A stretch of DNA of 64,000 bases from Alphaproteobacteria bacterium (GCA_029250225.1 JAQWUY010000016.1:79275-143274); one strand, 5' to 3'; positions 15,858-50,426 are shown, counted from the first letter of the stretch. Translations and numbers: made by a program. The notes: generated by a model not told the origin, from the sequence alone.

Positions 15858-15944
15858 GCCTCTGTGGCGGAACTGGTAGACGCGCTAGACTCAAAATCTA
15901 GTTTCTTTCGGGAAGTGAGAGTTCGATTCTCTCCGGAGGCACCA
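15858..15944 (+). tRNA. tRNA-Leu (anticodon CAA), CCA encoded
   Basis: Hand-folded as: acceptor GCCTCTG/CGGAGGC (one G-U), 3-bp D stem, anticodon stem CTAGA/TCTAG with loop CTCAAAA, 15-nt long variable arm (class II), T arm GAGAG-TTCGATT-CTCTC, ACCA. Total 87 nt. Confidence 0.93.
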
Positions 15945-16153
15945 TGCATATAAGTATATTTTACATATATGTATATTTTTAATATAAATTTATTACTAAT
16001 TATCATAAAAAAGCTTGCAAAAATTTATATAGCACTATATTAGTCTAATAAAAGTATTATATTAATTCGTTATTGATTCGAAGTATTTTTAATTTTTTAA
16101 TATTAACATTTACCTAAAAAAAATAAATATATATTTAAAATGGAGATGTTAAA

Positions 16154-18220
16154 GTGTTTAAAAATAGAAAGATATTAATCTTGCCTCTTGCACTGCTTGT
16201 GCTTGATTCTAAATTTAATGGTGTTTATGCCGAAGAATTAGTTTTAGAAAAAGTCGTAAATTCTTCTAAGCGAGATGTTAAGAAAAAAGAATTTACATCT
16301 GGCGTTAGAATTATTAGTGCGCAAGAATTAAAAGAAAACAATATCAAAGATATATCTGATTTAGGTATTTTGGTTCCAAGCTTGAAAATAAATCAAGCTG
16401 GGAATCAAGCATATACTTCGTATTCTTTGCGTGGAGTGGCCGATGGTAATCATTATATTCCATCTCTAATTATATATGTAGATGGTGTAGCGCAAGATCC
16501 AAGGTTAGCACCTTCTTTATTAAATGTAAAAAAAATCGAAATTTTGAAAGGGCCACAGTCTTCTCTTTATGGTAAAAATTCATATTCTGGTGTAATTAAT
16601 ATTGTTACGCAAAGTCTAAAAAATGCCGATAGTATTTCCGGTGTTGCAAGACATTCATCATTGGGTGGTTCTGGTTTATTAAATATTTCTTCACCGTTAG
16701 TAAAAGATAAATTGTATTTTGGAGCTTCCCTGCTTAATTCAGAAGATAAAGGTAATGCGAGCAGAAAAGAGGCTGAAAATAGCATAAAAAATGATAATTT
16801 TTCTGTAAAACTTCAATATGCTCCTGTTAATAATCCGCTTAATGTTTCTTTTACACATTCATCTGTTAATAAGAAATCAGCAGGGCGTTTTTATCAAACT
16901 GCCACCTGGCAAAAAGGAGAAGATTTTATTGCTGGATATCTTGATAGAAGCGAAATAAAGAGCAATCAATCAGCATTAAAAGCTAGTTATGATTATGATA
17001 ATTATAAATTAACTTATATCACATCCTTTCAAAAAAGTTTTATGGCAAGAAATTTGTCTTTTAAGCAAAACGAAGATACTAAATCAACAACACAAGAAAT
17101 AATCATGAATTATGATTCACCTAATAAATTAATGTCTAGTGTTTTTGGGTTCTATTATTCAAAAGATAAATTTAATAGAGATTCTGTTTCTATGACTTAT
17201 TATGATGGTACAAGTAGAATTGTCACAGATGGGGCAACTACTGCGTGTGCCACCGATCCTGTAACTACTTGTTATGAAGGTTACTACTATTACACTACTC
17301 CACATATAGTAAACATAGATAAAAAGAGTTATTCTTTGTATGGTGAAACAAGCTATAATATTAATAGTGCTACCAAATTAACAGTTGGTGGACGAATTAT
17401 AAAAGATAAAATTTTACTTAAAGCTCGTGAATCCGCAAGTAGTAACAATGAAAATTTAGATGCTAGTACAAGCTATACTTCTATTCTGCCAAAAGTTGGT
17501 TTAACCTATGATTGGGGTGGTAATGTAACACAGTATGCTACAATCAATCGTGGTTACAAAGTAGGTGGATTTCAGCGTACATTTGTGCAAGAGTATAAAG
17601 TTAGCTTATTTAAACGAGAATATAATGTAAATTATGAAACAGGTTTGCGATATGAAACGCCAAACAAAGATTTATCTTTTGATGGTTCTGTTTACTATAA
17701 CAATATGAATAATACTCAATTCTATGAAGGCGATCCAGGGGCACAAGTTGTTGTTAATAAAAATTCAAAATCATACGGTGTGGATTTAAATGCAACAATT
17801 CATAAGATTAAAGATATTGATTTTATTGTAGGTGTTCAATATAACAAATCTTCTATTAGTGGCTCAACGAAAAAACAAACACCGTATGTCCCAGTATTAA
17901 GTGGTAATTTGGGTGTTAGGCATTATCTAGATATGTCTAAATTTAATGTTAAAGGTGATTTGATCACAAATTTAAATATTTTTTATACCGGTAAAAGTTA
18001 TTTAGATTTAGCTAACAATTTTAGAGAAGATTCTTATGCATTGGTTAATTTGCGCACTACTTATAAAACTGGTGGACTTATTGATGTGTCATTGTTTGCG
18101 AATAATATATTTGATAAAGCTTATAGGACATATGCTGGGGGAACATCACCAAATGAATATATACAAATTGGTAAGAGAAGGGATATTGGTATAGAATTTA
18201 TGTTTAAACATAAATTTTAA
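16154..18220 (+). CDS. TonB-dependent outer-membrane siderophore receptor (FyuA/FptA-like role)
   Basis: 688 aa with a GTG start 8 nt after GGAG and a signal peptide. The plug domain reads VRIISAQELKENNIKDISDLGILVPSL..YSLRGV and IEILKGPQSSLYGKNSYSGVINI. The beta-barrel ends in the terminal aromatic FKHKF. Confidence 0.88.
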   Translation: MFKNRKILILPLALLVLDSKFNGVYAEELVLEKVVNSSKRDVKKKEFTSGVRIISAQELKENNIKDISDLGILVPSLKINQAGNQAYTSYSLRGVADGNHYIPSLIIYVDGVAQDPRLAPSLLNVKKIEILKGPQSSLYGKNSYSGVINIVTQSLKNADSISGVARHSSLGGSGLLNISSPLVKDKLYFGASLLNSEDKGNASRKEAENSIKNDNFSVKLQYAPVNNPLNVSFTHSSVNKKSAGRFYQTATWQKGEDFIAGYLDRSEIKSNQSALKASYDYDNYKLTYITSFQKSFMARNLSFKQNEDTKSTTQEIIMNYDSPNKLMSSVFGFYYSKDKFNRDSVSMTYYDGTSRIVTDGATTACATDPVTTCYEGYYYYTTPHIVNIDKKSYSLYGETSYNINSATKLTVGGRIIKDKILLKARESASSNNENLDASTSYTSILPKVGLTYDWGGNVTQYATINRGYKVGGFQRTFVQEYKVSLFKREYNVNYETGLRYETPNKDLSFDGSVYYNNMNNTQFYEGDPGAQVVVNKNSKSYGVDLNATIHKIKDIDFIVGVQYNKSSISGSTKKQTPYVPVLSGNLGVRHYLDMSKFNVKGDLITNLNIFYTGKSYLDLANNFREDSYALVNLRTTYKTGGLIDVSLFANNIFDKAYRTYAGGTSPNEYIQIGKRRDIGIEFMFKHKF

Positions 18221-18282
18221 CACACCAACATTAAGGCAAAAAGTATGTCATAAATTAAAACAAGAAGGTTGAGGGTAATCAT

Positions 18283-28700: not shown

Positions 28701-31700
28701 AGCCAAATAACAATACAGAGCATCAAAACATAGATCATTTACTAGAACAATTAGATAGTTGTTGTGAAGGGTATTCAGTAATTACGGAAATAATTTCTAA
28801 TGCAGGGGAAAAACTTTATGAAATGATGACGGGTGAAGTTGAACCTGTTGCTATTATATTTCCGGAAAGTTCTTCGGGTGGAGTAGAAGTTTTATATCAA
28901 GATTTTAGTTTTGGTCGCTATTTTAACCAAATCGCAACAGCCGTTGTTAAGGGAATTATGCAAGAATATAATTCAGGAATTAAACAAAAGAAATTTAAAA
29001 TTTTAGAAGTTGGTGGTGGTACCGGTGGAACAACTTCTTGGATATTAAAAGCATTGAAAGATCAAAATAATATTCAATATGATTTTACAGATATATCATC
29101 TATTTTTACAAGGCGTGCGGAAAGTAAATTTTCTGAGTATGACTTTTTATCTTACAAAGAATTTAACATAGAAAAAGATCCGCGAAAACAAGGTTTTAAA
29201 ACAGGTGAATACGATTTGATTATAGGTGCAAATGTTATTCACGCCACACAAGATGTAAATAAAACACTTGCAAACTTATATCCTTTACTTAAATCTGGTG
29301 GTCGTTTATTGATGCGTGAACTTACACGCCCAATGAGATTGTTTGATTTTGTATTTGGCCCCTTAGTTTCTCCTTTACACGATGAAAAACAACGCGATGG
29401 TCAATTATTCTTAACAACTGATATTTGGAAAAAACAATGTATTGATGTTGGTTTTGATAAGGTTGAATGGTTACCTGATGATGGAAGTCCGATGTCAGAA
29501 ATGAGCGAACATATCATATTAGCTACAAAAGACAGTAATTCGTTAAATAATGGTTTGGCTATTAATTACAATGGAGTGGATTCATTATTAGGACAATCTA
29601 TTACAAATGATGGTTGTTATATTGCGAATTGGTCTAAATGTGCAGGTAATCAAGAGCTTTGGGAAAAACAAATTAATAATGTTTGTGCTGAACTAGCATC
29701 GCGTCACGGACACAAAGAGTTATCTTTACATAACATTCCTAGTGTTCCTGAATACTTGACAATAGTTAGTATTTCTTACGAAGTAAAACCTTTTAAAGCA
29801 CCTAATTTAAAAATTGATGCTTGTGATAATGATGGTGTTTGGAATACTGTTTTAGGTAATGTTGATAACAATATTGAAAATAAAGTTTATAGTCCTGCAA
29901 CCGATACAAATTATGAATTAGAATGGTTTGAAATCGAAAGTGAATCTAATGAAAAAATCAGTGTTTGCTTAGAAGAAAAAAATATAGAACTTACCAAAAC
30001 ATTGGAAAAAAATGGTGTTACGGTTTCTGATGATGGAAATTGGAATATTGTAGTAATTCCAAATTCTGATATAGATAATGTAGAACTTGCCGAACAAGTT
30101 ATAAATAAAATTGTTCACAATGATAAATCACCATTAATAATGGTAACCCGTTCAGCTTGGAAAATTGAAAAAGATGAACAATTAAATATTTCACATCACG
30201 CGTTGTGGGGTATTTTTAAAGTTGTTGATAATGAACAAAAAAATATATTTGTTATAGATATTAATGAAAATGCAGATTGGCAAGAAATTGTACCTGCTTT
30301 ATCAGCAATTCAAAATGGACATAATTTTATAACTGTTCGTAACTCTAAAATAAAAGTTCAGAAATTAGTCGAGAGTAAACATTGTGCTCCAAATCTACCA
30401 TATCAAAGTATGAATAGTAGTTCTTGGCATGTTGTTACAGGTGCTTTTGGTGGCTTAGGATTACTTTGTGTTGAATGGCTAGCACAAAAAGGAGCTAAAA
30501 AAATTGCATTATTAGCCCCAAGGTCTAAGGAAAATTGGAAAGATTTAAAAGAAGATTTTGCCAAGCGTTATTCTTGTGAAATCAAGTGGATTAAGTGTGA
30601 TATTTGTGACACAAATAAATTACTTGATGTAATGGCAAAATTACAAAAAGATGCTGGTGTTAACGGTGTTATTCATAGCGCAGGTGTTCTTTATGATTCT
30701 CCTATTTCTATGTTAAGTAAAAAAGACTTAACACACGCATTTAATGTAAAAGCAAATTCAGCATTATTCTTGCATAAATGGTTAAATGAAAATAAGGGAC
30801 AATATTTAATTCTGTTTTCTTCTGTGGCATCTGTTCTTGGTTCAACTGGTCAATCCGCTCACGCGTTTTCAAGTTCATTCCTAGATGGAATTGCTATTTC
30901 TAATCAAGATAATGAACATCTAAAAACTATATCTATCGCTTGGGGTGCTTGGGGTAAATCAGGTAAAGCATCAGATATTAATCTTCAAAAGAATCTAGAA
31001 AAAGGTGGAATGGGATTATTAAGTGATGATGAAGGTTTATGGAATTTAGAACAAGCAATAATGCGTTGTGCCCCTTATAGGATTGCTATGCGTATTATCC
31101 CAGAAAAATTAAACACAGTTCATCGTAAATTATTAGAGATAGAAGATAATCAAACCCCTTTAAAGAAATCAGATGTTAAAGTTGTTAAATCTAATGTTGA
31201 TATTAAAGATAAAAAATCTGTTAAAGAATGGATAACAAGAAACATTATAACTCAATTAAGAATATCAGAGACAGAGTCTATTTCTGAACAGAAAAATCTA
31301 ATGGAAATGGGACTAGATTCTTTATTATTCTTGGAATTAAAGAGTTTAATAAAACGAGACTTGTTTATTGATATCGATACAGATAAGGCTTATAAAAACC
31401 TTTCCATAGAAGGACTGTCTGATTTAATAACAGCAGAAACACAGGTATTAGATGAAAATCAAAGCTCAACGCAAGTATTAGAGCACAACAGCCAAGAGCG
31501 TTATTTACCGTTTCCATTAACACCAATTCAGCATTCTTATTGGATGGGAAGAACTGATTTAATTGAATATGGTGGTGTTGCTTGTCAAGTGGTATTTGAA
31601 TGGAATAAATCTCGTGCTGATCTTGATTTAGATCGTTTTGAAAGTGCTTGGAATAAACTTATAAAACGACACGATATGCTACGAATGTTTGTAAATAATG

Positions 31701-34700
31701 ACGGTGAACAAGTTATTTTACCTAATGTTCCTTATTATTACTTGAAAAAGCGCGATTTAAGGAATATGACGCAGGAACAAAAAGAGTTAGAGATTATTAA
31801 AACTCGCAAAGAACTTGCATATGTTGTTTTACCTGCTGATAAATGGCCTTTATTTGAATTAGTAGTTAATGAATTTGATGACGATAATTATTCTATACAT
31901 ATGAAATTAGATCTATTAATGTTTGATGCGCAAAGCTTCAAAGTAATGATGGATGATTTACAATATGCATATGATGGTGAAGAATTAAAACCTTTTTCTA
32001 TCACTTTTAGAGATTATGTGTTGTTACAAGAACAACAAAGACAAACTGAATCTTGGCAAAGATCTTGGTGTTACTGGCAACAAAAACTTATTGATTTACC
32101 GCCCGCTCCAAGACTACCTCTTGCAGAGATACAGCCTAAGGGTAACTCAACCTTTACCACACATCGATCTACTCTGGATAAAAAGTTGTGGGATAATATA
32201 AAACGATCTTGTAAATCTTGGGGTGTTACACCTTCAACAGTATTGATGACATTATTTGCAAAAACTATTGAAAGATATGCTAGACAGCCAGAATTTACAT
32301 TGAATTTAACATTCTTTGATCGTAAAGATGTCCACCCAGAAGTATCAGAAATAATAGGAGATTTTACATCTGTTTTATTAATCGATTTCGATTTTAGAAA
32401 TACAGATAAATTAATTGATCATATTAAGAATACTCAGCAAAAACTTTGGGAATCATTTGCACATAATCAAGTTAATGGTGTGGAAATAATACGTGAACTT
32501 AGTAAATTACACGGTGTTAATAAACAACCCTTAATGCCAGTAGTTTTCACAAGTATGCTTGGAATGTCACTTGATGGTCTTAATGTTAATCAAGCGATTA
32601 CAAGTTTCCTTGGTGAACCTTCTTATTTATTTACACAAACACCACAAGTATGGCTTGATCATCAAATTATGGAAGTAGATGGAGATTTAGTATTTGGTTG
32701 GTATGTAATGGACGGTGTCTTGGAAGAAGGAACTGTTGAGGCTATGTTTGAAGAATATAATTCAATGTTAAATGCTTTATCTGAAAACCTTGATTTAATA
32801 AACCAAAAAGATAGTTTTAAAACAGATGATAAGGGCAATATTGTCTCTTGTTCTAATTACCCTTATGTATTTGATGCGGGTGATAAGAGTTTCAATCTAT
32901 TAGAAGTTGAGAAATCTCTTCGTTGTTTACCAAACATAAGAAGAACGGAGTTAGTACAATCTAATGAACAATTACAAGCTTATATTGAAGTTGAACAATG
33001 CAGTGTCAATAATTCACCTGTAATAGTTAGCCCAGATGAATTGAGTAAGATGGATAAGCAACAAGAACAAGAAGTTATAAAAGCATTACAATGGTTTGAA
33101 AAATACGCATTACAAGGAATTTGTAAGACTATGAATGACCATCAATTGTTTAATACGCTAGGCCAAGGGCATACATTGATTGAAATTCAAAAACAACTCT
33201 CTGTGTTACCAAAATTTGATTCTATTGTGAAACAGTGGTTGAGTTTATTACAAGATAATGAATTTGTTAAAAAAGATGGTAACTTATTTGTATGTGTTAA
33301 GCCATTACTTAATGAATTTGAATCTTTTGATTTACTTCCAAATAAAGGATGGTATCGTACGATAGCTGAATATCTTCAAACTTGTGTTGAAAAGCACCCA
33401 TCTTTACTTAACGGTAGTCAATCACCACTAGATTTACTTTTTGGAAATAACAGTGCTGTTGCGAATGTTTTTTATACTAAAAATCCGGTTGTGCAATATC
33501 TTTATGAAAATGCAACTTATATTGTGCAAAAAATGATTGATGAAAATCCATCTTTAAATATATTAGAAGTTGGTGCGGGCACAGGTGCTATTTTGAAAAG
33601 TATGAAACAAATATTAAAGGGTTCTATTCAAAAGTATAACTTTACTGATGTTTCTACTTTATTCCTTGATGATGCTAAAAAAGAATTTGCAGATTTTAAA
33701 GAATTGGACTTTGCTTTATTTGATATTAATAAAGAAGTTGATTTTAATGAACACCCGCATCAAGGATATGACCTTATTATTGCCAATCAGGTTTTACACG
33801 ATTCTAATAATGTTGTTGAAACACTGAAAAAATTACTCTTACTGTTATCAGATAGTGGTAGAATCATTATCGTAGAAGCAACACTAAGAGATAGTAATTT
33901 ACAGGCAGCTAGTATAGGATTCCTTGAAGGTATTGGAGGATTTAATGATATAAGGATGTTAGATAACAAACCTATGCTAGATATACCTATGTGGCGTAAT
34001 GCTCTAGAAGAAGCTGGTTTTGTTATAGATGTTTTATTACCTAATGAAGAACAATCTATTATGGGGCAACATTTGATAACAATTAAGCCTAAAAGTTTTG
34101 CAAGATTAGAGGCTGATAAAATAAATGAATATATTAATGATAATTTTAAAGAATTATCAAACAATATTAAGCTACATCAATGTGAAAAACTTCATAATAA
34201 TATTAGAATGTTAGAATCAAATAGTTCTTCTTCTGATGTTGAAAATATCATTGTAGAAAATTCTGAACCTTTAATTAATAAAGTAAAAAAAGATAAATAT
34301 ATTATTAAATTAGAAAATCAGATTAAGGAAGTTTGGGAAGAATTATTGTCGCAAAAAATTTACTCCAATAGCGACTTCTTCCTAAGCGGTGGGGATAGCC
34401 TTATCGCAACAAGAATGATTGTAAAATTAAATAATATAGGTATAAAAGGTGCCAATTTACAAATACTGTTTGAAAACTCTAAGTTTACAGATTTTTGCTC
34501 AAATATATTGGAGTCAGAATATGAAACAGATGATGTTGATAACATTGTGAATTTAATTCCTTTGAGTAAAGGAAGTAGAAATGAGAAAATATTTTTATTC
34601 CATACTTCTTCTGGTGGAGTCACAAGTTATATTAATTTCGCTCAAAAGCTAGATGCAGATGTATACGGTGTGCCGGCACCTTATCCATTAAAAGTAAATA

Positions 34701-35323
34701 GTTTGAAAGAACTTGCTGGTATTTATGTAAATGCTATTCGTAAATTACAGCCTAAAGGCCCTTATTTATTGGCTGGTTGGTCTTACGGAGCATTCCTTAT
34801 AAAAGAGGCTTCTATTATCTTAAAAGATTTTAATGAAGAGGTAGTTTTAATGTTTATTGATCCTATTTGCCAATCTGATTTTACTTTTAACAATAATACT
34901 TCAAAATTAAGGTTGTTATCTAAAGAACCCATAAATATATCATTACCGGATAATTTCGATGAGATAGGTGAGAAAAAACAGATAAATATTTTTATTAAAA
35001 ATGTTCTTTCTACATCTTTAATTAAGAGAAAAAAAATTAAAAATGTAAGACAATGGATTAAACAAATAGATGATTTATTGGAAATTCTAAATAAATATTC
35101 TGAATCGGAAAAAACATCTTTCCCTTCTTTATATATAAGTTCCCTTAATAGACCGTCACATTGGACACCATCTGAAAAAGAATGGCAAAATTGGATCTCT
35201 AAATCTGAACATCACTCTTTAAATGTTAGTCACTGGGATCTAATGGAAAATGAAAATACACTTGATACTCTTGCTAAATTATTCCACTCGTGGGTAGACA
35301 AAAATAAAGTAATCGGAGGATAA
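25697..35323 (+). CDS. HMWP1 (Irp1)-like PKS-NRPS: KS-AT-cMT-KR-ACP-Cy-MT-PCP-TE
   Basis: 3208 aa. KS: TACSSSL with Cys188 at nt 26258-26260, EAHGTGTPLGD, NLGHLDTASG. AT: GHSVGE with Ser644 at nt 27626-27628, a malonyl-type Val. cMT: ILEVGGGTGG around nt 29000. KR: VVTGAFGGLG around nt 30440. ACP: GLDSL with Ser1875 at nt 31319-31321. Cy3: FPLTPIQHSYWMGR and DLLMFDAQS from nt 31910. MT2: ILEVGAGTGA around nt 33570. PCP3: GGDSL with Ser2901 at nt 34397-34399. TE: GWSYG with Ser3029 at nt 34781-34783. Confidence 0.93.
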   Translation: MTLNIDKLIEDIYPDCDPIAIIGHSGKFSKSEDNEEFWNNIINGVELSKEFSRQELLNAGIDASTIDDPNFVNIGSEVTDADKFDAELFGYSRQEAETIDPQQRIFLQLVWHALENAGYPPLNIQHKTGVFGSSRISTYPGQKKIDMAEIAQVKGLQSLVGNDKDYLATRIAYKLNLKGPAISVQTACSSSLVATHMACESLRSGECNMAIAGGIAVSFPQHTGYIYQSGMIFSPDGRCRPFDKQAQGTFGANGGGVVVMRRLKDALEDGDKITSVILGSAINNDGSEKAGYTAPSVFGQKRVIQEAIELSDVNVQDIGLIEAHGTGTPLGDSIEVKALKNVFDVRENDNSCALGSVKSNLGHLDTASGIASLIKASMAVEKGIIPPSLNFDNPNPELQLENSPFYIPTKPENWDSQNRIAGVSSFGIGGTNCHMIVSCLPQELQEITIKKDNVKASVSETDGVLLLSASSEKSLRGMAKSYAESMVKLSPQDLAYTSLHCRHIDMPYRLAVKICKETEVALKSFSDGKNDFRIHMNSTTPNKQVWLFTGQGSHWEEMAHKLYKNSQYFADTLDKCFVAFDKAIQDGNTVSPNKVSLREVMLGKSADLLKYMEYAQPAIVSFELAMASHWQGQGLKPDFIIGHSVGEFAGAVIAGYYELEPVIQLVKLRGLLMDKCPNGNMVSVFADEDTVMPIGNDAGVEIAVWNGENNIVFSGDEKSMKKFTTMLEEKNIDYRELSVTGAAHSKLLDGILEEFEIEAKKLDCKAGNIPIISTLLGKVINEKELKTPKYWSRHMREPVKYKQAVDVALKQGANVFIEMGPDAILTQIGSYRKIDDVNWIATSKRFISSSIQMEQALIKLYVAGVKMDWVNLLPSSGNKINAPVYHFDTQSYWIENKPKAVNIVQNSINMPIEIGRQTAYQAVKNLEIPRLEKMYECITKLHVIYVEKLIYKCVGSSIEEGLSASTILRRGRILPRYSQLLVRLLNSCVEDGYFSKDGDYFKPNNNTEHQNIDHLLEQLDSCCEGYSVITEIISNAGEKLYEMMTGEVEPVAIIFPESSSGGVEVLYQDFSFGRYFNQIATAVVKGIMQEYNSGIKQKKFKILEVGGGTGGTTSWILKALKDQNNIQYDFTDISSIFTRRAESKFSEYDFLSYKEFNIEKDPRKQGFKTGEYDLIIGANVIHATQDVNKTLANLYPLLKSGGRLLMRELTRPMRLFDFVFGPLVSPLHDEKQRDGQLFLTTDIWKKQCIDVGFDKVEWLPDDGSPMSEMSEHIILATKDSNSLNNGLAINYNGVDSLLGQSITNDGCYIANWSKCAGNQELWEKQINNVCAELASRHGHKELSLHNIPSVPEYLTIVSISYEVKPFKAPNLKIDACDNDGVWNTVLGNVDNNIENKVYSPATDTNYELEWFEIESESNEKISVCLEEKNIELTKTLEKNGVTVSDDGNWNIVVIPNSDIDNVELAEQVINKIVHNDKSPLIMVTRSAWKIEKDEQLNISHHALWGIFKVVDNEQKNIFVIDINENADWQEIVPALSAIQNGHNFITVRNSKIKVQKLVESKHCAPNLPYQSMNSSSWHVVTGAFGGLGLLCVEWLAQKGAKKIALLAPRSKENWKDLKEDFAKRYSCEIKWIKCDICDTNKLLDVMAKLQKDAGVNGVIHSAGVLYDSPISMLSKKDLTHAFNVKANSALFLHKWLNENKGQYLILFSSVASVLGSTGQSAHAFSSSFLDGIAISNQDNEHLKTISIAWGAWGKSGKASDINLQKNLEKGGMGLLSDDEGLWNLEQAIMRCAPYRIAMRIIPEKLNTVHRKLLEIEDNQTPLKKSDVKVVKSNVDIKDKKSVKEWITRNIITQLRISETESISEQKNLMEMGLDSLLFLELKSLIKRDLFIDIDTDKAYKNLSIEGLSDLITAETQVLDENQSSTQVLEHNSQERYLPFPLTPIQHSYWMGRTDLIEYGGVACQVVFEWNKSRADLDLDRFESAWNKLIKRHDMLRMFVNNDGEQVILPNVPYYYLKKRDLRNMTQEQKELEIIKTRKELAYVVLPADKWPLFELVVNEFDDDNYSIHMKLDLLMFDAQSFKVMMDDLQYAYDGEELKPFSITFRDYVLLQEQQRQTESWQRSWCYWQQKLIDLPPAPRLPLAEIQPKGNSTFTTHRSTLDKKLWDNIKRSCKSWGVTPSTVLMTLFAKTIERYARQPEFTLNLTFFDRKDVHPEVSEIIGDFTSVLLIDFDFRNTDKLIDHIKNTQQKLWESFAHNQVNGVEIIRELSKLHGVNKQPLMPVVFTSMLGMSLDGLNVNQAITSFLGEPSYLFTQTPQVWLDHQIMEVDGDLVFGWYVMDGVLEEGTVEAMFEEYNSMLNALSENLDLINQKDSFKTDDKGNIVSCSNYPYVFDAGDKSFNLLEVEKSLRCLPNIRRTELVQSNEQLQAYIEVEQCSVNNSPVIVSPDELSKMDKQQEQEVIKALQWFEKYALQGICKTMNDHQLFNTLGQGHTLIEIQKQLSVLPKFDSIVKQWLSLLQDNEFVKKDGNLFVCVKPLLNEFESFDLLPNKGWYRTIAEYLQTCVEKHPSLLNGSQSPLDLLFGNNSAVANVFYTKNPVVQYLYENATYIVQKMIDENPSLNILEVGAGTGAILKSMKQILKGSIQKYNFTDVSTLFLDDAKKEFADFKELDFALFDINKEVDFNEHPHQGYDLIIANQVLHDSNNVVETLKKLLLLLSDSGRIIIVEATLRDSNLQAASIGFLEGIGGFNDIRMLDNKPMLDIPMWRNALEEAGFVIDVLLPNEEQSIMGQHLITIKPKSFARLEADKINEYINDNFKELSNNIKLHQCEKLHNNIRMLESNSSSSDVENIIVENSEPLINKVKKDKYIIKLENQIKEVWEELLSQKIYSNSDFFLSGGDSLIATRMIVKLNNIGIKGANLQILFENSKFTDFCSNILESEYETDDVDNIVNLIPLSKGSRNEKIFLFHTSSGGVTSYINFAQKLDADVYGVPAPYPLKVNSLKELAGIYVNAIRKLQPKGPYLLAGWSYGAFLIKEASIILKDFNEEVVLMFIDPICQSDFTFNNNTSKLRLLSKEPINISLPDNFDEIGEKKQINIFIKNVLSTSLIKRKKIKNVRQWIKQIDDLLEILNKYSESEKTSFPSLYISSLNRPSHWTPSEKEWQNWISKSEHHSLNVSHWDLMENENTLDTLAKLFHSWVDKNKVIGG

Positions 35324-35327
35324 TAAA

Positions 35328-36422
35328 ATGACATTAATAAAAAGAAAATTAAGATTGTTGGTTGTAGGTGCTAAGTTCGGAGAAACATATTTAAATGCAT
35401 TTTTATGTCCAAATCCAGATGTTGAATTGGTTGGTTTACTTTCAACAGGAAGTGAGAGGTCAAAAAAGCTAGCGCATTCATTTGGAATATCTCTGTATAC
35501 TGATATAAGTCAAGTGCCACAAGATATTGACATTGCTTGTGTTGTTGTTCGTTCAACAGTCGTAGGTGGTGATGGAACAACATTAGTGGAAGAGTTATTA
35601 AAAAGAGGCATTCATATCATTCAAGAACATCCTGTTCATTCTGATGATATTATTAAATTACAAGATCTAGCAAAGAAAAATAAATGTATATATTGGGTAA
35701 ATAGTTGTTATGCTCATACACCAGCAGGAAAATGTTGGATAAATAATACTAAACATATAATTGAAAATCTGAATGAAGGTTCTCCTAGTTATGTTAATTT
35801 TACAACTAGTAGACAGCTTTTGTATTCCTCGCTTGATTTATTATTACAAGGATGCAAAGAAAGAGAAGTAGATATTCGTGTTGTGGAAAATGAAAATCCA
35901 TTATTTAGCCTTATAAATTTAAATTTTCCAGATTTCACTGCTACATTAAGGTTACAAAAATATATGGATCCTAGGGAACCAGATTTTCACAGCTTAGTAA
36001 TGCATAAATTAACTGTTGGTTGGACATCTGGTTATTTATCATTAGAATCTAGTTATGGGCCGGTTTTATGGACTTCTTCTTTATATGATGAAGAGCACAA
36101 TTATATTGATGAAAGTTTTTATTCAAGAAATAATGAAAAATCTAAAAACTTTCTTTCAGATCCAATAACAACCACTTTATATTCTCCGCCTGCAAGTTGG
36201 GGTGAAGCTTTTGAGATTGATAATGCAAAGGGAGTAAAAGAAGTTTTAAATTTACTTGTTGCTCATTTAAACGGAGATGATATTCCAGATATATTCGATG
36301 AAAGTTATCAAGTATTTTTATCTGATTTATGGCAAAAAATTCTACGCGAGGCTGATTTAGTAAACGAGCGTGAGATGCCAAAACCACGCACTATAAACCC
36401 CAATAATTTGCTTTATAAATAA
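35328..36422 (+). CDS. Thiazolinyl imide reductase (YbtU/Irp3/PchG family)
   Basis: 364 aa. LRLLVVGAKFGETYLNAF..VELVGLL..GSERSKKLAHSFGI..DIACVVVRSTVVGG..IIQEHPVH closely parallels my recollection of the Irp3/PchG N-terminal region. It sits directly after the HMWP1-like gene, as in ybt. Confidence 0.85.
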   Translation: MTLIKRKLRLLVVGAKFGETYLNAFLCPNPDVELVGLLSTGSERSKKLAHSFGISLYTDISQVPQDIDIACVVVRSTVVGGDGTTLVEELLKRGIHIIQEHPVHSDDIIKLQDLAKKNKCIYWVNSCYAHTPAGKCWINNTKHIIENLNEGSPSYVNFTTSRQLLYSSLDLLLQGCKEREVDIRVVENENPLFSLINLNFPDFTATLRLQKYMDPREPDFHSLVMHKLTVGWTSGYLSLESSYGPVLWTSSLYDEEHNYIDESFYSRNNEKSKNFLSDPITTTLYSPPASWGEAFEIDNAKGVKEVLNLLVAHLNGDDIPDIFDESYQVFLSDLWQKILREADLVNEREMPKPRTINPNNLLYK

Positions 36423-36430
36423 GGAATGAA

Positions 36431-37198
36431 TTGAAAATGGATAGTACAAACTTTAAAAATATGTTTAAAAATGGTCTTTATCCGAAAATACCAAATGCTG
36501 TTAATTTAGTATTATGCCCATTTGCAGGGGGGAGTAGTAGCTCTTTTCAAAATTGGTTTAATTATGATTTTGATGATATAAATTTTTTCTTAGCAACATA
36601 TCCAGGGCGAGAGCATAGAATGATAGAGGCTTTTGCAACTGATATAAATCAACTTGCCAATGATATTATTAGGAATATTTATGATTATAATTTAGATTTG
36701 GGAAATACGATTTTAGTTGGTCATAGTATGGGAGCACAAGTAGCTTATGAAACCTGCTTACTATTGGAAAAAAATAATACTCCACCTGCTGGTATTGTAA
36801 TTTCCGCTTGTCACGCCCCTCATCTTAAAGGAAGAAGAATTTTAAGTCATCTTGATGATGATGAATTTATTAAACAGTTAAGCGAAATTGGTGGTTTAAG
36901 TCAGGAATTATTAAAAGAAAAAAAACTTTTAAATTTTTTCCTTCCAATGTTGCGCTCAGATTTTAATATTACTGAATCTTATCATAATTCTGTATCATCA
37001 ATTACACATAAACTTACAACTCCTTCATTATTAATGTATGGTAGTTCTGATAACGAAGTTTCAAAAAAAGAGGTATCTTTATGGTCAGAATGGTTATGTA
37101 AATCTTCGGAGCCTGTACAATTATCAGGTGGACATTTTTATATTACACAAGATCCTAAAGACTTTATTGATGAAATTAATTTATATTTTAGGAAATAA
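36431..37198 (+). CDS. Type II (editing) thioesterase, YbtT-like
   Basis: 255 aa alpha/beta hydrolase with LVLCPFAGGSSSSF, the nucleophile motif GHSMGAQVAYE and a C-terminal GGHFY. Confidence 0.85.
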   Translation: MKMDSTNFKNMFKNGLYPKIPNAVNLVLCPFAGGSSSSFQNWFNYDFDDINFFLATYPGREHRMIEAFATDINQLANDIIRNIYDYNLDLGNTILVGHSMGAQVAYETCLLLEKNNTPPAGIVISACHAPHLKGRRILSHLDDDEFIKQLSEIGGLSQELLKEKKLLNFFLPMLRSDFNITESYHNSVSSITHKLTTPSLLMYGSSDNEVSKKEVSLWSEWLCKSSEPVQLSGGHFYITQDPKDFIDEINLYFRK

Positions 37199-37201
37199 AA
37201 T

Positions 37202-37918
37202 TTGTATAAAATGTTTGGTAATTTTATCACTTTATGTGAACAACAGACTTTTTCTAAATGCAATAAAGATGTAATTTTGATGAATTGTAAATATAATCGT
37301 CATTCTTTTTGTGAAGAATATTATGATTTTCTACCATTTAGTGAACCGATGCATATTAAAAATTCTGTTGTTAAAAGAAGAGCAGATTTTTTAGCAGGCA
37401 GAATAACGGCTATGTTTGCTCTTGAAAAAATTGGAATAAAGAATACAGGTGTTTCCGTAGGAAATAATCGTATGCCAATTTTTCCAGAAGGTTGTGTTGG
37501 TTCTATAACACATACTTGTGAAAGAGCATTTGTAGCGGTATCTAAGAAAGAAAATACTTCGTTAATTGGGGTTGATTGTGAAAAAAAAATTTCATCACCA
37601 CTTGCAAAAAATATTTCATTAGAAATTTTATTAGATAGCGAAATAAAAAATTTTAATCAGATGGAAATAAGTTTTTCCTTGTATTGTACAATTGTGTTTT
37701 CAGCTAAGGAAAGCTTATTTAAAACTTTGTATCCGGTTGTAGGAGTTTTTTTTGGTTTTAAATGTGCGCAAGTAGAAATAAACTCTGATATAAGTGGCTT
37801 TAAAATAAAAGTTATACGCCCATTAGGTGATTTTAAAGGAGTTGAGTTTTATGGGCATATTGAAATTTTTTCAGACTCCGTTTTTACAATAATTACTAGT
37901 TCTAGTACTTTTGAATAA
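37202..37918 (+). CDS. 4'-phosphopantetheinyl transferase, EntD/YbtD type
   Basis: 238 aa from TTG 37202 (or ATG 37211). EntD-family motifs are present: RRADFLAGR, GSITHT, IGVDCE and FSAKESLFK. Confidence 0.8.
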   Translation: MYKMFGNFITLCEQQTFSKCNKDVILMNCKYNRHSFCEEYYDFLPFSEPMHIKNSVVKRRADFLAGRITAMFALEKIGIKNTGVSVGNNRMPIFPEGCVGSITHTCERAFVAVSKKENTSLIGVDCEKKISSPLAKNISLEILLDSEIKNFNQMEISFSLYCTIVFSAKESLFKTLYPVVGVFFGFKCAQVEINSDISGFKIKVIRPLGDFKGVEFYGHIEIFSDSVFTIITSSSTFE

Positions 37919-37955: not shown

Positions 37956-39116
37956 TTAATCAGTTTCTATTTTTAAAATTGTATATATTGTTATGATTAG
38001 TAAAATTAAGCATATTAATAACACGCTAATGTATGTATTTATGTCTTGGTAAATAAGCGATATTAAGCTAACAAGTATAGTTGGAATTCCAATTGAAATT
38101 AATGTGAATATACTGCTTGCAAAACCCGCTGATTCTGGAAATTCAGCAATTGCTGATGTCCTTGCCACACTAAAATAACATCCCGTAATAAAAGTTAATA
38201 TTAATTGAATAGCAGAAAAGTTATAAACATTATATCCTACCATACTTACAACAAATATAAATAATATTAAAAGACATAACATAAGAATTGTGTTTTGAAA
38301 AAATCTATGTATGCCGTGTTTACTTATTATTCTATTAGCCCATATAGCAGATAAAATAATTTGAAATGCAATTAACCCAAAAATAATAGAATATGTAAAT
38401 TTATCTGATCCTAATTCATTTATAATTATAAATGGTGAAAATGATATGAACGAGAATATATTTGTGAATACAAGAGCCAATATAATACCATATAAAATAA
38501 ATAATTTATTCCTAAAATATGATGATCCATTTTGTATTAAATTTGATAAGTTTATAGGAATTGGGGTTTTCAATGTTTCTACTAGAAAAATTTTTATCAA
38601 TAACAAAGTAATTATTGAAAATATAAACATAATCAAGAAAGGCCCTTTCCAACCAAATAAATAAATCGATACCACACCAATTAGCGGGCCTATTATGGGT
38701 GCAATTCCAAAACCCATCGCCACTTTTAGATTTACCGCTCTTGCTTGTTTTTTGCTAAACAAATCGTTTGCATATGCACTTGCAAATGGTGTTGCAAAAG
38801 CTCCGCCTATTGCCTGTATTATGCGTGCTATATACAATACATTAATACTTGTTGCTATAAATAGCATTAATGAACCTATTGAAAATATAGATAAACCAAC
38901 TAATGCCATTTTCTTTCTTCCGAACCTGTCAATTAAAGGGCCGTATAATATTGCAAAAGTTGATATAATAAAAGTATAAGAGCTTAATAAAAATTGTACT
39001 TGTGGAACATCAGCTTCAAAAAAAGTTGCTATTTCAGGAAGAGCAGGTAACAATATATCAATCGCAATCGATGGAATTGCTACTACTAATATAAGTGCTG
39101 TTATTATAAGTGACAT
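37956..39116 (-). CDS. MFS transporter, Bcr/CflA drug-efflux subfamily
   Basis: 386 aa with 12 TM helices. IDILLPALPEIATFF..QFLLSSYTF..ILYGPLIDRFGRKK is the Bcr/CflA N-terminal signature. Its ATG shares one nucleotide with the purA stop (TAATG at 39114-39118). Confidence 0.8.
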   Translation of the reverse strand: MSLIITALILVVAIPSIAIDILLPALPEIATFFEADVPQVQFLLSSYTFIISTFAILYGPLIDRFGRKKMALVGLSIFSIGSLMLFIATSINVLYIARIIQAIGGAFATPFASAYANDLFSKKQARAVNLKVAMGFGIAPIIGPLIGVVSIYLFGWKGPFLIMFIFSIITLLLIKIFLVETLKTPIPINLSNLIQNGSSYFRNKLFILYGIILALVFTNIFSFISFSPFIIINELGSDKFTYSIIFGLIAFQIILSAIWANRIISKHGIHRFFQNTILMLCLLILFIFVVSMVGYNVYNFSAIQLILTFITGCYFSVARTSAIAEFPESAGFASSIFTLISIGIPTILVSLISLIYQDINTYISVLLICLILLIITIYTILKIETD

Positions 39117-46533: not shown

Positions 46534-46551
46534 TTAAGAAAGAATAATTAT

Positions 46552-49500: not shown

Positions 49501-50403
49501 ATTCAAAAAATGCGTGATAATCCAGATTGTGCTAAGCAAGAATTTATGGAAATAGACAAAGATGATGATAATGGATTGCATATTCATATGACATACGACA
49601 TATCGGCACCAGCTATTAAAAAAACAGCACCTAAGATGGCTATTTTGCGAGAACAAGGTGTAAATGGACAAGTGGAAATGGCAAATGCTTTTCATAGTGC
49701 AGGGTTTGATTGTTACGATGTGCATATGACTGATTTAATCAATAACAGTGTTGATTTATCTAGCTTTAATGGTTTTGTTGCCTGTGGTGGTTTTTCATAT
49801 GGTGATGTATTAGGTGCAGGTGGTGGCTGGGCAAAATCTATTTTATTTAATAGTAAATTAAAAGATGATTTTACTAAATTTTTTGAAGCAAAAGATAAAT
49901 TTACCCTAGGTGTGTGTAATGGTTGTCAAATGTTATCACAATTATCAGGGTTAATGTTAAACGAGCAAAATATACCTAGGTTTGTAAAAAATACATCGAA
50001 TCAATTTGAAGCAAGAATAGCAATGGTTGAAATTCAAGCGACAAAATCTATTTTCTTCGAAGGTATGGCTGGTTCTAGGTTGCCTATTGCTGTTGCACAC
50101 GGTGAAGGCAGAGTTAAATTTGGAAATAATCAAGCTGTTGATTCATTGTATGATAATAAACAAATTACACTTAGATATGTTGATAATAATGGAAATGCAA
50201 CACAAAATTACCCAGCAAATCCGAATGGTTCAATTGATGGTATTACAGGTATTTGTTCAGATGATGGTCGTATAACAATGATGATGCCACATCCAGAGCG
50301 ATTTTACAGAGGTGTTCAAAATTCGTGGACTCGTGATTTAGATGAAGATGGTCCTTGGAAACAAATATTTTATAATGCGTATAAATGGACAACTCAATCA
50401 TAA
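46552..50403 (+). CDS. purL: Phosphoribosylformylglycinamidine synthase, large single-chain form
   Basis: 1283 aa. The FGAM synthetase core carries [26 protein letters not shown]. The fused C-terminal glutaminase carries GVCNGCQM and the HGEG and MPHPER blocks. Confidence 0.95.
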
Positions 50404-50426
50404 TTTATAAGTAAAGGTTAAAAATA

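What the first reader, a model, noticed from the sequence alone, without database searches (positions are those of the whole stretch)
16154..37918. Yersiniabactin-type thiazoline NRPS-PKS siderophore locus (HMWP2/HMWP1/YbtU/YbtT-like) in an AT-rich, alphaproteobacterium-like chromosome
A TonB-dependent receptor gene is followed by six co-directional, tightly packed genes. Junctions are a 5-nt gap, an ATGA overlap, and 4-, 8- and 3-nt gaps. They encode:
- ArCP-Cy-A(MT-like insert)-PCP-Cy-PCP (2058 aa)
- an AmpG-like MFS permease
- KS-AT-cMT-KR-ACP-Cy-MT-PCP-TE (3208 aa)
- a thiazolinyl-imide-reductase homologue
- a type II thioesterase
- an EntD-type PPTase

The domain order and even the protein sizes mirror the established HMWP2 and HMWP1 strings of the Yersinia high-pathogenicity island. 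All three Cy domains keep the DxxxxDxxS motif, and the single A domain has a Cys-type pocket.

The flanking genes (xerD-accA, aroK-aroB, GCS2 gshA, zapE) and the low GC suggest a small-genome alphaproteobacterium. I know of no characterised yersiniabactin-class pathway in that context.

The gene order differs from the ybt and piscibactin loci. No AraC/YbtA regulator, YbtPQ ABC pair, salicylate genes or integrase are present. The product is predicted to be a tris-thiazol(id)ine metallophore that may differ from yersiniabactin.
Basis: partly seen in the sequence, partly recalled or inferred. Interest (0 to 1): 0.8.

Follow-up and report, generated by a model that had tools for sequence, protein, structure and literature searches.

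The report
Yersiniabactin-type cluster missing its starter genes
A low-GC marine planktonic alphaproteobacterium carries an intact, selectively maintained yersiniabactin-type metal-chelator gene cluster that has lost the genes that normally make and load the salicylate starter, so how the product is started is unknown.

Summary

The locus is a yersiniabactin-class (HMWP2/HMWP1/YbtU/YbtT) assembly line. It also carries a FyuA-like receptor, an FptX/AmpG-like MFS and its own PPTase. It sits in the chromosome of an unclassified marine planktonic alphaproteobacterium (about 31% GC; Tara and JGI seawater MAGs). Cluster GC equals flank GC, and there is no integrase.

Its core gene order is not unusual. 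It is the common environmental ybt layout (Xanthomonas, Chromatiales, two low-GC marine sister lineages). All of those relatives carry a salicyl-AMP-ligase/salicylate-synthase fusion directly after the TEII gene. The nearest sister lineage, on a Tara Oceans contig, also carries an ABC pair there.

The window lineage has cleanly lost these roughly 6.6 kb. No remnant exists in the window, and no orthologue was found in 5.8 billion protein clusters.

The megasynthases nevertheless stay intact and under purifying selection (ω about 0.25; Cy1 0.10). ArCP and Cy1 show lineage-specific acceleration.

Best reading: a functional ybt-type metallophore pathway whose starter is supplied from outside the cluster by an unidentified loader. 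This is a new variant of a known kind, of moderate interest.

The parts
15858..15944 (+). tRNA-Leu(CAA); left boundary of the locus
   Evidence: ARAGORN and Rfam RF00005. No integrase or direct repeat is associated with it.
15945..16153 (.). Upstream non-coding region, the presumed promoter/operator. It contains the 14-bp palindrome ATATAG(C/T)ACTATAT at 16027-16040.
   Evidence: The palindrome is conserved in 4 strains. A related half-site is repeated 3x upstream of the Tara-lineage TBDR. There is no Fur box above chance, and the palindrome is not enriched across the window. Its function is inferred only.
16154..18220 (+). FyuA-like TonB-dependent outer-membrane receptor
   Evidence: Pfam Plug plus TonB_dep_Rec barrel. 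The best solved relative is FyuA/pesticin receptor 4epa at E=7e-38, against about 1e-11 for all other receptors. It is the most divergent gene between strains, with dN/dS 0.60.
18283..24459 (+). HMWP2-like NRPS, 2058 aa: ArCP-Cy1-A(MT-like insert)-PCP1-Cy2-PCP2
   Evidence: Domain evidence. It is 44% identical to Klebsiella/Yersinia-type Irp2 over 2012 aligned residues. dN/dS is 0.25.
18283..18540 (+). ArCP (aa 1-86), with the GMDS phosphopantetheine serine intact
   Evidence: Alignment to HMWP2 S52. There are 0 substitutions against a 98% strain. Tajima relative-rate test gives 23 vs 5 unique changes against the sister lineage, p=9e-4.
18541..19866 (+). Cy1 (aa 87-528), DLLILDAVS
   Evidence: Matches 7ry6 HMWP2 Cy1 at E=3e-146. 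Motif. ω=0.095. Relative-rate test 56:17, p=5e-6.
19867..22782 (+). Cys-activating A domain (aa 529-1420), with an MT-like insert (about aa 1001-1370) between A8 and A10, followed by PCP1 (GGDS)
   Evidence: TIGR01733 at 368 bits. Pocket D-L-Y-N-M-S-M-I-W-K is identical to HMWP2. Methyltransf_12 hit at aa 1191-1284.
22783..24459 (+). Cy2 (aa 1501-1930, DNLMLDGLS) and PCP2 (GASS)
   Evidence: Matches 7jtj Irp2 Cy2 at E=1e-122. Motifs.
24465..25700 (+). AmpG/RhtX/FptX-like MFS permease; candidate inner-membrane ferri-metallophore importer
   Evidence: PF07690. TIGR02718 (RhtX/FptX) 74 bits and TIGR00901 (AmpG) 62 bits, both below their cutoffs. 68% identical to the Tara orthologue, 46% to the L086 orthologue, 25% to YbtX. 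The same position is occupied in Xanthomonas.
25697..35323 (+). HMWP1-like PKS-NRPS, 3208 aa: KS-AT-cMT-KR-ACP-Cy3-MT-PCP3-TE
   Evidence: Domain evidence. Motifs: TACSS, HGTGT, NLGH, GHSVG, GAAHS, 2x ILEVGxGTG, DLLMFDAQS, GLDS, GGDS, GWSYG. 45% identical to HMWP1 over 3107 residues. dN/dS is 0.27.
35328..36422 (+). YbtU/Irp3-like thiazolinyl imide reductase
   Evidence: TIGR01761 at 320 bits (cutoff 189) and PF21390 Irp3-like_C.
36431..37198 (+). YbtT-like type II thioesterase
   Evidence: PF00975. The best solved relative is YbtT 6ba8 at E=5e-60, against 1e-25 for the next.
37202..37918 (+). EntD/Sfp-type 4'-phosphopantetheinyl transferase. It directly follows TEII at the position where relatives have the YbtE-YbtS fusion (the nearest sister, on a Tara contig, also has an ABC pair there).
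   Evidence: 4PPT_N plus ACPS. EntD model 97 bits, below its cutoff. 57% identical to the Tara-lineage in-cluster PPTase. Junction sequence.
37956..39116 (-). Bcr/CflA-family MFS efflux pump, convergent with the PPTase; possible exporter, membership uncertain
   Evidence: TIGR00710 at 174 bits, below its cutoff of 201. Present in all 98% strains. Absent from this position in the Tara lineage. dN/dS is 0.26, like the cluster genes.

Best explanation
This is a chromosomally fixed, functional yersiniabactin-class metallophore system.

**Proposed mechanism (inferred from domain homology)**
1. The in-cluster PPTase primes five carrier domains.
2. The single A domain loads L-cysteine onto PCP1, PCP2 and (in trans) PCP3.
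3. Cy1, Cy2 and Cy3 build three thiazoline rings.
4. KS-AT-cMT-KR inserts a gem-dimethylated, reduced malonyl unit.
5. The second MT methylates the last ring.
6. The YbtU-like reductase reduces the middle thiazoline to a thiazolidine.
7. The YbtT-like TEII edits misprimed carriers, and the TE releases the acid.
8. The metal complex returns through the FyuA-like receptor and the FptX/AmpG-like MFS.

**What differs from the relatives**
- The cluster is a reduced derivative of the common environmental ybt layout.
- A single deletion of about 6.6 kb removed the salicyl-AMP-ligase/salicylate-synthase fusion and the YbtPQ-like ABC pair.
- The N-terminal ArCP and Cy1 are retained and constrained.
- The starter acid must therefore be activated by an enzyme encoded outside the cluster, and outside this 64-kb window.
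- The identity of that loader, and hence of the cap group (salicylate or another acid), is not known.

**Shown versus inferred**
- Shown: gene content, domain and motif integrity, the loss relative to sister lineages, purifying selection, and ArCP/Cy1 rate acceleration.
- Inferred: product scaffold, transport roles, and loading in trans.
For: **Class membership**
- Supported.

**Derived loss**
- The Tara sister lineage (NRPS 71%, reductase 77% identical) has TEII-fusion-ABC-ABC-PPTase.
- Lineage 3 (64%) has the fusion after TEII.
- The Chromatiales MAG and Xanthomonas have TEII followed by the fusion.
- The window and at least 5 independent assemblies of its lineage have TEII directly followed by the PPTase.
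- No remnant exists in any frame of the window.
- No fusion orthologue above 57% identity exists in the protein database, although this lineage's other proteins have 10-29 members there.

**Maintained function**
- Both megasynthase ORFs are intact in short-read assemblies.
- ω is 0.25 for the NRPS (p=2e-10 for ω<1) and 0.27 for the PKS (p=7e-13).
- ω is 0.095 for Cy1 (p=3e-4), 0.056 for AT and 0.165 for KS.
- ArCP is invariant between strains.
- With about 5.5-6% of point substitutions creating stops, the observed divergence would be expected to have produced about 5.5 and 7.4 stops under neutrality. None are seen.

**Long residence**
- Cluster GC is 30.8% against 30.7% for the flanks.
- The chromosomal position is the same in all strains.
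- The NRPS is as frequent in metagenomes as the housekeeping genes of this lineage.

**Rewiring of the initiation module**
- Tajima test, window vs Tara with lineage 3 as outgroup: ArCP 23:5, Cy1 56:17, Cy2 52:26.
- The A core gives 32:27, the MT insert 34:37 and PCP1 10:11.
- Most HMWP1-like domains give 0.8-1.7, with isolated higher values for TE (2.3, Chromatiales outgroup) and ACP (6:0, HMWP1 outgroup).
- The conserved basic patch after the ArCP serine (R/H-L-M...RKRG) has become D-I-I...KEYK.
Against: - No loader has been seen. Only 64 kb of the genome, plus ±10 kb pieces of relatives, could be read.
- A metagenome scan for YbtE-like ligases found nothing on this lineage's JGI contigs. 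It used only two peptide patterns, so it is a weak negative.
- The large protein search would not have displayed a stand-alone ligase, because every listed hit was a fusion.
- ω of 0.25-0.5 for the cluster genes is higher than for the flanking housekeeping genes (0-0.16).
- One long-read contig has frameshifts in the TBDR, NRPS and PKS. The NRPS and PKS ones lie in short homopolymer runs and look like assembly errors; the TBDR one does not, and real decay cannot be excluded for any of the three.
- The ArCP test rests on 86 residues. With the more distant Chromatiales outgroup it is not significant (11:4, p=0.12).
- No iron-regulatory box was recognised.
Confidence: 0.55

Rival explanations
1. 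Starter switch. After (or enabling) loss of the salicylate genes, the ArCP-Cy1 initiation module adapted to a non-salicylate starter. The starter could be another aryl or acyl acid delivered by an unrelated adenylating enzyme, or cysteine mis-loaded by the cluster's own A domain. The product would then be a new yersiniabactin analogue.
For: - The rate acceleration is episodic and domain-specific, in ArCP and Cy1 (also Cy2), and is followed by strong present-day constraint (Cy1 ω=0.095; ArCP invariant).
- The partner-recognition helix after the ArCP serine has changed charge.
- No orthologue of the ancestral ligase-synthase fusion is detectable.
- The HMWP2-type A domain is known, from established yersiniabactin enzymology, to load several carriers including one in trans.
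Against: - The acceleration could equally reflect accommodation to a different salicyl-AMP ligase.
- It could also reflect transient relaxation after the deletion.
- Nothing identifies the alternative substrate.
- Cy2 and the reductase are also mildly accelerated, so part of the signal is a general speed-up of this lineage.
Confidence: 0.2
2. The biosynthetic genes no longer make a product. The locus is a slowly decaying remnant. Alternatively, it is kept only for its receptor and permease, to pirate yersiniabactin-type chelators made by others.
For: - The two genes indispensable for chain initiation, and the ABC pair, are gone.
- Cluster ω exceeds housekeeping ω.
- One assembly shows frameshifts in the TBDR, NRPS and PKS.
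- Loss of production with retention of uptake is a well known pattern for siderophore public goods.
Against: - 5,266 codons of megasynthase remain open in a 31% GC genome across several strains. About 13 stops would be expected from the observed substitutions if they were neutral.
- ω<1 at p of about 1e-10 to 1e-13, and catalytic cores have ω of 0.06-0.17.
- All catalytic motifs and carrier serines are intact.
- The NRPS and PKS frameshifts lie in homopolymer runs of a long-read assembly.
- The receptor, which piracy would preserve best, is the least conserved gene.
Confidence: 0.12
3. The locus is a recently acquired mobile pathogenicity-island-like element, analogous to the Yersinia HPI, inserted at a tRNA gene.
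For: - It lies next to tRNA-Leu(CAA).
- A strain-variable TIR defence gene sits at the same tRNA.
- The sister lineage carries the cluster in a different genomic context.
- The nearest high-GC relatives are Gammaproteobacteria and Betaproteobacteria.
Against: - GC is identical to the flanks.
- There is no integrase, transposase or direct repeat. The xerD nearby is the housekeeping recombinase.
- The position is the same in all strains, and the frequency equals that of core genes.
- The three low-GC lineages form a 100%-supported long-branch clade. Acquisition was therefore ancient, and inheritance has been vertical since.
Confidence: 0.05

Closest known systems
Yersiniabactin system of the Yersinia/E. 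coli/Klebsiella high-pathogenicity island (irp2/HMWP2, irp1/HMWP1, ybtU, ybtT, ybtE, ybtS, ybtPQ, ybtX, ybtA, fyuA)
   Same: - Identical domain strings and near-identical protein sizes: 2058 vs 2035 aa and 3208 vs 3158 aa.
- 44-45% identity.
- The same Cys pocket.
- Both MTs, KR and TE are present.
- The YbtU, YbtT and FyuA homologues are each the best match among solved structures or curated models.
   Different: - There is no ybtE, ybtS, ybtPQ, ybtA or integrase.
- An MFS gene lies between the two megasynthase genes.
- The PPTase is inside the cluster.
- The tRNA context is Leu rather than Asn.
- GC equals the host chromosome.
- The host is a marine low-GC alphaproteobacterium rather than an enterobacterial pathogen.
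Environmental ybt-type clusters with a YbtE-YbtS fusion (Xanthomonas arboricola, Chromatiales and Acidihalobacter MAGs, Burkholderia, Paracidovorax; products largely uncharacterised as far as I know)
   Same: - The core order is the same: NRPS-MFS-PKS/NRPS-reductase-TEII.
- 47-50% NRPS identity.
- An in-cluster PPTase and a TBDR are present.
   Different: - They carry the 975-1010-aa salicyl-AMP-ligase/salicylate-synthase fusion after TEII.
- Where the upstream arm could be read (Xanthomonas arboricola, L098; metagenome contig L086) they also carry an ABC pair and an AraC regulator.
- The window lineage has none of these.
The two low-GC marine sister lineages (ENA k119_98493 = TARA_SAMEA4397129 scaffold_22; ENA k141_349375 / JGI Ga0308013)
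   Same: - Same clade (100% bootstrap), similar GC (33-34%), and the same order TBDR-NRPS-MFS-PKS/NRPS-reductase-TEII.
- 63-77% protein identity.
   Different: - Both retain the fusion directly after TEII.
- The Tara lineage also retains ABC-ABC before the PPTase.
Equibactin (eqb locus, Streptococcus equi ICESe2)
   Same: - It is a ybt-like thiazoline NRPS in a low-GC organism that lacks a salicylate synthase.
- Production needs exogenous salicylate (PMC3672683).
   Different: - Equibactin keeps its salicyl-AMP ligase EqbD.
- As far as I recall it has no PKS module (not checked in the passages read).
- It sits on an ICE and has a DtxR-type regulator and ABC importers.
- The window lacks the ligase as well.
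Piscibactin (irp locus of Photobacterium damselae and Vibrio) and pyochelin (pch)
   Same: - An ArCP-Cy-A NRPS, a thiazolinyl reductase and a TonB receptor.
- An MFS permease: Irp8 and FptX (from my own knowledge of these loci).
   Different: - Vibrio-type NRPSs are the most distant group in the tree (41-42% identity).
- From memory, piscibactin lacks the PKS C-methyltransferase (no gem-dimethyl), and pyochelin has no PKS module.
- The window has an intact cMT.

Membership tests
Yersiniabactin-class NRPS-PKS assembly line | HMWP2 architecture ArCP-Cy-A(MT-like insert)-PCP-Cy-PCP with a Cys-specific A domain | tested here: met
   Pfam/NCBIfam. PDB matches to HMWP2 Cy1 and Irp2 Cy2. Two DxxxxDxxS motifs. 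Three carrier serines. Pocket identical to HMWP2.
Yersiniabactin-class NRPS-PKS assembly line | HMWP1 architecture KS-AT-cMT-KR-ACP-Cy-MT-PCP-TE | tested here: met
   45% identity over 3107 aligned residues.
Yersiniabactin-class NRPS-PKS assembly line | Thiazolinyl imide reductase (YbtU/Irp3) | tested here: met
   TIGR01761 at 320 bits, above the cutoff of 189; PF21390.
Yersiniabactin-class NRPS-PKS assembly line | Type II thioesterase YbtT | tested here: met
   Best solved relative is YbtT 6ba8, E=5e-60.
Yersiniabactin-class NRPS-PKS assembly line | Salicylate synthase (YbtS/Irp9), or a PchA/B equivalent | tested here: not met
   No chorismate-binding protein in the window. tblastn with YbtS and the Tara fusion finds nothing. 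The rest of the genome could not be read.
Yersiniabactin-class NRPS-PKS assembly line | Stand-alone or fused salicyl-AMP ligase (YbtE) to load the ArCP | tested here: not met
   The only AMP-binding match in the window is the NRPS A domain, at 25% identity. No fusion orthologue exists in the database. The rest of the genome was not testable.
Yersiniabactin transport and regulation set | FyuA-type TonB-dependent receptor | tested here: met
   4epa at E=7e-38, far ahead of other receptors.
Yersiniabactin transport and regulation set | YbtP/YbtQ ABC pair and YbtA AraC-type regulator | tested here: not met
   No hit in any frame of the window. Both are present in L086 and Xanthomonas, and the ABC pair is present in the Tara lineage.
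Yersinia-type high-pathogenicity island (mobile element) | P4-like integrase, tRNA-Asn insertion, deviant GC, flanking repeats | tested here: not met
   No integrase other than housekeeping XerD. The adjacent tRNA is Leu. Cluster GC is 30.8% against 30.7% for the flanks.
Yersiniabactin (the compound) producer | Product identity: salicyl-capped thiazoline-thiazolidine-(gem-dimethyl, hydroxy)-methylthiazoline acid | not testable with these tools
   All tailoring domains are present, so the scaffold downstream of the cap is predicted to be the same. The cap is undetermined.

The most novel reading that the evidence does not exclude
A free-living, low-GC marine planktonic alphaproteobacterium maintains a costly 22-kb yersiniabactin-type assembly line that has discarded salicylate synthesis and activation and has remodelled its ArCP/Cy1 initiation module.

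It would then make a new, non-salicylate-capped member of the yersiniabactin class. Alternatively, it depends on a community-supplied precursor and a non-cognate loader.

This would be a previously unrecognised route of metallophore production by abundant oligotroph-like bacterioplankton.
Probability: 0.22. Interest if true: 0.7.

Novelty: new variant of a known kind. Interest (0 to 1): 0.5.

Why it matters
**Ocean metal cycling**
- Siderophore synthesis in the open ocean is usually attributed to copiotrophs such as Vibrio, Alteromonas and Marinobacter.
- A vertically inherited, selected NRPS-PKS metallophore pathway in a 31%-GC planktonic alphaproteobacterium, seen in Tara and several seawater metagenomes, would add a producer class to models of iron, zinc and copper ligand cycling.

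**Assembly-line enzymology**
- This is a natural experiment. The initiation genes were deleted, yet the ArCP and Cy1 are kept and remodelled.
- Identifying the replacement loader would show how carrier-protein and partner specificity re-evolves.
- It could also yield a new yersiniabactin analogue.

**If the genes are elsewhere**
- If the missing genes simply sit elsewhere in the genome, the locus is an ordinary, though taxonomically new, member of a well known family.

Tried and rejected
**Regulation and operon boundaries**
- A Fur-box scan found no enrichment and no good site upstream of the operon.
- Sigma-70 promoter and intrinsic terminator scans at both cluster ends were at or below chance.
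- The 14-bp palindrome upstream of the TBDR is conserved among strains but not enriched in the window. It is kept only as a note.

**Insertion site and host taxonomy**
- A search for an empty-site synteny (zapE/accA/xerD near purA) in 80 alphaproteobacterial purA loci found none.
- Host taxonomy could not be refined beyond Alphaproteobacteria.
- The DASS-transporter scan found nothing.
- The reductase scan of GTDB representatives found only a Chromatiales MAG.

**Search for the missing loader**
- A metagenome scan for YbtE-like ligases on this lineage's contigs returned only lineage 3 among marine low-GC hits, and used just two peptide patterns.
- A motif-based DNA scan for aryl-AMP ligases was designed but abandoned. 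The A8 motif is not conserved in this clade, and the A3 motif is too common and not AT-biased.

**Literature**
- Searches for yersiniabactin with marine, Alphaproteobacteria or Tara terms, and for AEGEAN-169 with siderophore, found no description of this locus.

**Rejected readings**
- HPI-like recent island: GC, absence of an integrase and fixation in the lineage all argue against it.
- Piscibactin-type product: the cMT is intact and the Vibrio clade is distant.

Full report
**1. Observation**

- The junctions are a 5-nt gap, an ATGA overlap (read directly), and 4-, 8- and 3-nt gaps.
- A 62-nt gap separates the receptor gene from the NRPS gene.

- The receptor has Plug plus barrel.
- The 2058-aa protein has three PP-binding regions, two Condensation regions, one AMP-binding region and an embedded methyltransferase-like region.
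- The 3208-aa protein has KS, KS-C, AT, two methyltransferase regions, KR, PP-binding, Condensation and Thioesterase.
- The reductase scores 320 bits on TIGR01761 (cutoff 189).
- The last two genes are a thioesterase and a 4PPT_N+ACPS phosphopantetheinyl transferase.

Comparison with solved structures gives the domains specific identities.
- Residues 87-528 match HMWP2 Cy1 (7ry6, E=3e-146), and residues 1501-1922 match Irp2 Cy2 (7jtj, E=1e-122).
- Residues 1926-2364 of the second protein match Irp2 and EpoB Cy domains.
- The TEII is closest to YbtT (6ba8, E=5e-60).
- The receptor is closest to FyuA (4epa, E=7e-38, against about 1e-11 for any other receptor).

**2. Catalytic integrity**

- All three Cy domains carry DxxxxDxxS.
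- All five carrier serines are present: ArCP GMDS, PCP1 GGDS, PCP2 GASS, ACP GLDS, PCP3 GGDS.
- The ten specificity-pocket positions of the A domain read D-L-Y-N-M-S-M-I-W-K, identical to the Cys-activating HMWP2 domain. I placed these positions relative to the A4, A5 and A10 motifs from my knowledge of GrsA numbering.
- KS (TACSS, HGTGT, NLGH), AT (GHSVG and GAAHS, as in HMWP1), both MT motif I sequences and TE (GWSYG) are intact.
- Identity to Klebsiella/Yersinia-type Irp2 and Irp1 is 44% and 45%.

**3. Host and context**

- The window is uniformly about 30% GC. The cluster is 30.8% and the rest 30.7%.
- The flanks are housekeeping genes: aroK/aroB, xerD, accA and zapE on the left.
- On the right are an MFS pump, purA, a DASS transporter, tsaC, guaB, purF-L-M-C-D-N-E-K and TRAP transporter genes.
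- PurA best matches are all Alphaproteobacteria, at 70% identity or less.
- Cluster members at 90% identity include NCBI MAG proteins labelled 'Alphaproteobacteria bacterium', TARA_038 surface-water genes, and JGI, ENA and Logan contigs up to 1.12 Mb.
- The NRPS is seen about as often as the lineage's housekeeping proteins: 21 members against 10-21.
- It always lies between zapE/tRNA-Leu and purA.
- There is no integrase or transposase.
- The locus is therefore an old, fixed part of this chromosome, not an HPI-like island.

**4. Relatives and the key difference**

- The NRPS belongs to the widely distributed HMWP2 family. Identity is 44-50% to Chromatiales, Acidihalobacter, Xanthomonas, Burkholderia, Pseudomonas syringae, Photorhabdus/Xenorhabdus and Enterobacterales, and 41-42% to Vibrio.
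- Two further low-GC marine lineages (33-34% GC; 71% and 63% NRPS identity) form a 100%-supported long-branch clade with the window.
- The core order NRPS-MFS-PKS/NRPS-reductase-TEII is shared with the Tara lineage, a high-GC metagenome contig, the Chromatiales MAG and Xanthomonas arboricola. The gene order is therefore the common environmental layout.
- In every relative, TEII is followed by a 975-1010-aa fusion of an aryl-AMP ligase and a chorismate-binding (salicylate synthase) domain.
- In the Tara lineage this is followed by two ABC half-transporter genes and then the PPTase.
- In the window, and in at least five independent assemblies of its lineage, TEII is followed after 3 nt by the PPTase.
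- A six-frame search of the window finds no remnant of the fusion, the ABC genes, YbtS or an AraC regulator.
- The phylogeny is (window, Tara), then lineage 3, with high-GC outgroups. The absence is therefore a derived loss of about 6.6 kb on the window branch.
- A search of 5.8 billion protein clusters with the Tara fusion found nothing above 57% identity apart from the query itself. The other cluster proteins are 57-77% identical between the two lineages. A relocated orthologue of the fusion is thus unlikely.
- A stand-alone ligase would not have been displayed in that search, because every listed hit was a full-length fusion.

**5. Is the pathway still used?**

- Against strains about 98% identical, housekeeping genes give dN/dS of 0-0.16.
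- The NRPS gives 0.25 (46 synonymous and 47 non-synonymous changes; one-sided p=2e-10 for ω<1). The PKS-NRPS gives 0.27 (p=7e-13).
- By domain: Cy1 0.095 (p=3e-4), AT 0.056, KS 0.165. The ArCP has no substitution at all.
- About 5.5-6% of possible point substitutions in these AT-rich genes create stop codons. The observed divergence would therefore have produced about 5.5 and 7.4 stops under neutrality, and none are present.
- One nanopore/pilon contig has frameshifts in the TBDR, NRPS (A7 to A8) and PKS (CCC to CC).
- The NRPS and PKS frameshifts are most simply assembly errors. The TBDR one lies in a non-homopolymer, divergent stretch, and real decay in that population is not excluded.
- Overall the assembly line, including the aryl-carrier end, is under purifying selection after the loss.

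**6. Signature at the initiation module**

- I applied Tajima's relative-rate test to window versus Tara with lineage 3 as outgroup.
- There is an excess of window-specific changes in ArCP (23:5, p=9e-4), Cy1 (56:17, p=5e-6) and Cy2 (52:26, p=0.004).
- There is no excess in the A core (32:27), the MT insert (34:37) or PCP1 (10:11).
- In the HMWP1-like protein most domains give ratios of 0.8-1.7. The exceptions are TE (2.3, p=0.014, Chromatiales outgroup) and ACP (6:0, p=0.03, HMWP1 outgroup).
- The helix following the ArCP serine is R/H-L-M...RKRG in every relative, including HMWP2. It reads D-I-I...KEYK in the window.
- Acceleration on the branch that lost the ligase, followed by strong present-day constraint, fits re-adaptation of the ArCP/Cy1 pair to a different loading partner.
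- Transient relaxation cannot be excluded. With the distant Chromatiales outgroup the ArCP result loses significance (11:4).

**7. Mechanism**

- By homology, the system should build the yersiniabactin scaffold downstream of the cap. That scaffold is thiazoline-thiazolidine (YbtU-type reduction), a hydroxylated gem-dimethyl C2 unit (KS-AT-cMT-KR), and an alpha-methyl thiazoline acid (Cy3-MT-PCP-TE).
- Uptake would go through the FyuA-like receptor.
- With no YbtPQ, the in-cluster AmpG/RhtX/FptX-like MFS is the candidate inner-membrane importer. It scores 74 bits on TIGR02718, below the cutoff.
- The convergent Bcr/CflA pump at 37956-39116 is a possible exporter.
- The cap is undetermined, because no enzyme able to acylate the ArCP is visible.
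- Equibactin is a partial precedent. S. equi lacks a salicylate synthase and needs exogenous salicylate, but it keeps the ligase EqbD (PMC3672683).

**8. Verdict**

- The locus is a member of the yersiniabactin biosynthetic class by architecture.
- It fails the membership features concerning starter supply (YbtS, YbtE), ABC import, AraC regulation and island mobility.
- I rate it a new variant of a known kind.
- It is interesting mainly for the unexplained initiation step and for its host, a low-GC marine planktonic alphaproteobacterium.
- It is otherwise mechanistically conventional.
- No paper describing this locus or lineage was found.

Noticed in passing
window 14815-15606 (-): A 263-aa TIR-domain protein. 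It matches the PADLOC candidate single-gene defence system PDC-S35 over its full length (241 bits) and Pfam CAP12/Pycsar TIR. It sits beside tRNA-Leu(CAA). It is absent from otherwise 97-98% identical strains (L002, L097), so it is a strain-variable insertion.
   Followed up: partly
window 16154-18220: The FyuA-like receptor is by far the most divergent gene between strains: 92.5% nt identity against 96-99% for its neighbours. Its dN/dS is 0.60 (barrel 0.65), with several in-frame indels. This suggests diversifying selection on surface loops, for example from phage or bacteriocin pressure.
   Followed up: partly
window 16027-16040; L084 about 1960-2080; L097 about 3090-3230: A 14-bp palindrome, ATATAG(C/T)ACTATAT, lies upstream of the receptor gene and is conserved in four strains. 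A related half-site, ATATAGTA, is repeated three times at about 38-nt spacing upstream of the Tara-lineage receptor. In L097 a promoter segment of about 68 bp is tandemly triplicated. This may be an operator, but it is statistically weak in AT-rich DNA.
   Followed up: partly
window 9698-11662 (+): A 654-aa ORF with no Pfam, NCBIfam or PADLOC match. Its stop overlaps the xerD start. It is conserved at about 98% nt identity in a sister strain.
   Followed up: no
window 46552-50403 (+), within 45013-56005: A single-chain large PurL (1283 aa, 1973 bits on NF003672) lies inside a contiguous purF-L-M-C-D-N-E-K string. From memory, most Alphaproteobacteria use split purS/purQ/purL, so this may be unusual for the class.
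   Followed up: no
L097 (ENA ERZ28548091 contig_32919), equivalent to window 16933-16938, 22841 and 26034: A 1.12-Mb long-read contig of the same lineage has frameshifts splitting the TBDR, NRPS (A7 to A8) and PKS (CCC to CC), while the flanking housekeeping genes are intact. The cause could be assembly error or real pseudogenisation in one population; this is unresolved.
   Followed up: partly
window 37956-39116 (-): A Bcr/CflA-family MFS efflux pump lies convergent to the PPTase, 37 nt away. Its dN/dS (0.26) resembles the cluster genes rather than the neighbouring purA (0.06). It may be the metallophore exporter.
   Followed up: no
L099 14990-15745; L098 9476-9913; L086 9453-9896: Xanthomonas and high-GC relatives carry extra small genes that are absent from the low-GC clade. 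One is a 251-aa methyltransferase after the fusion. Another is a 145-147-aa protein with no Pfam hit directly upstream of the NRPS.
   Followed up: no
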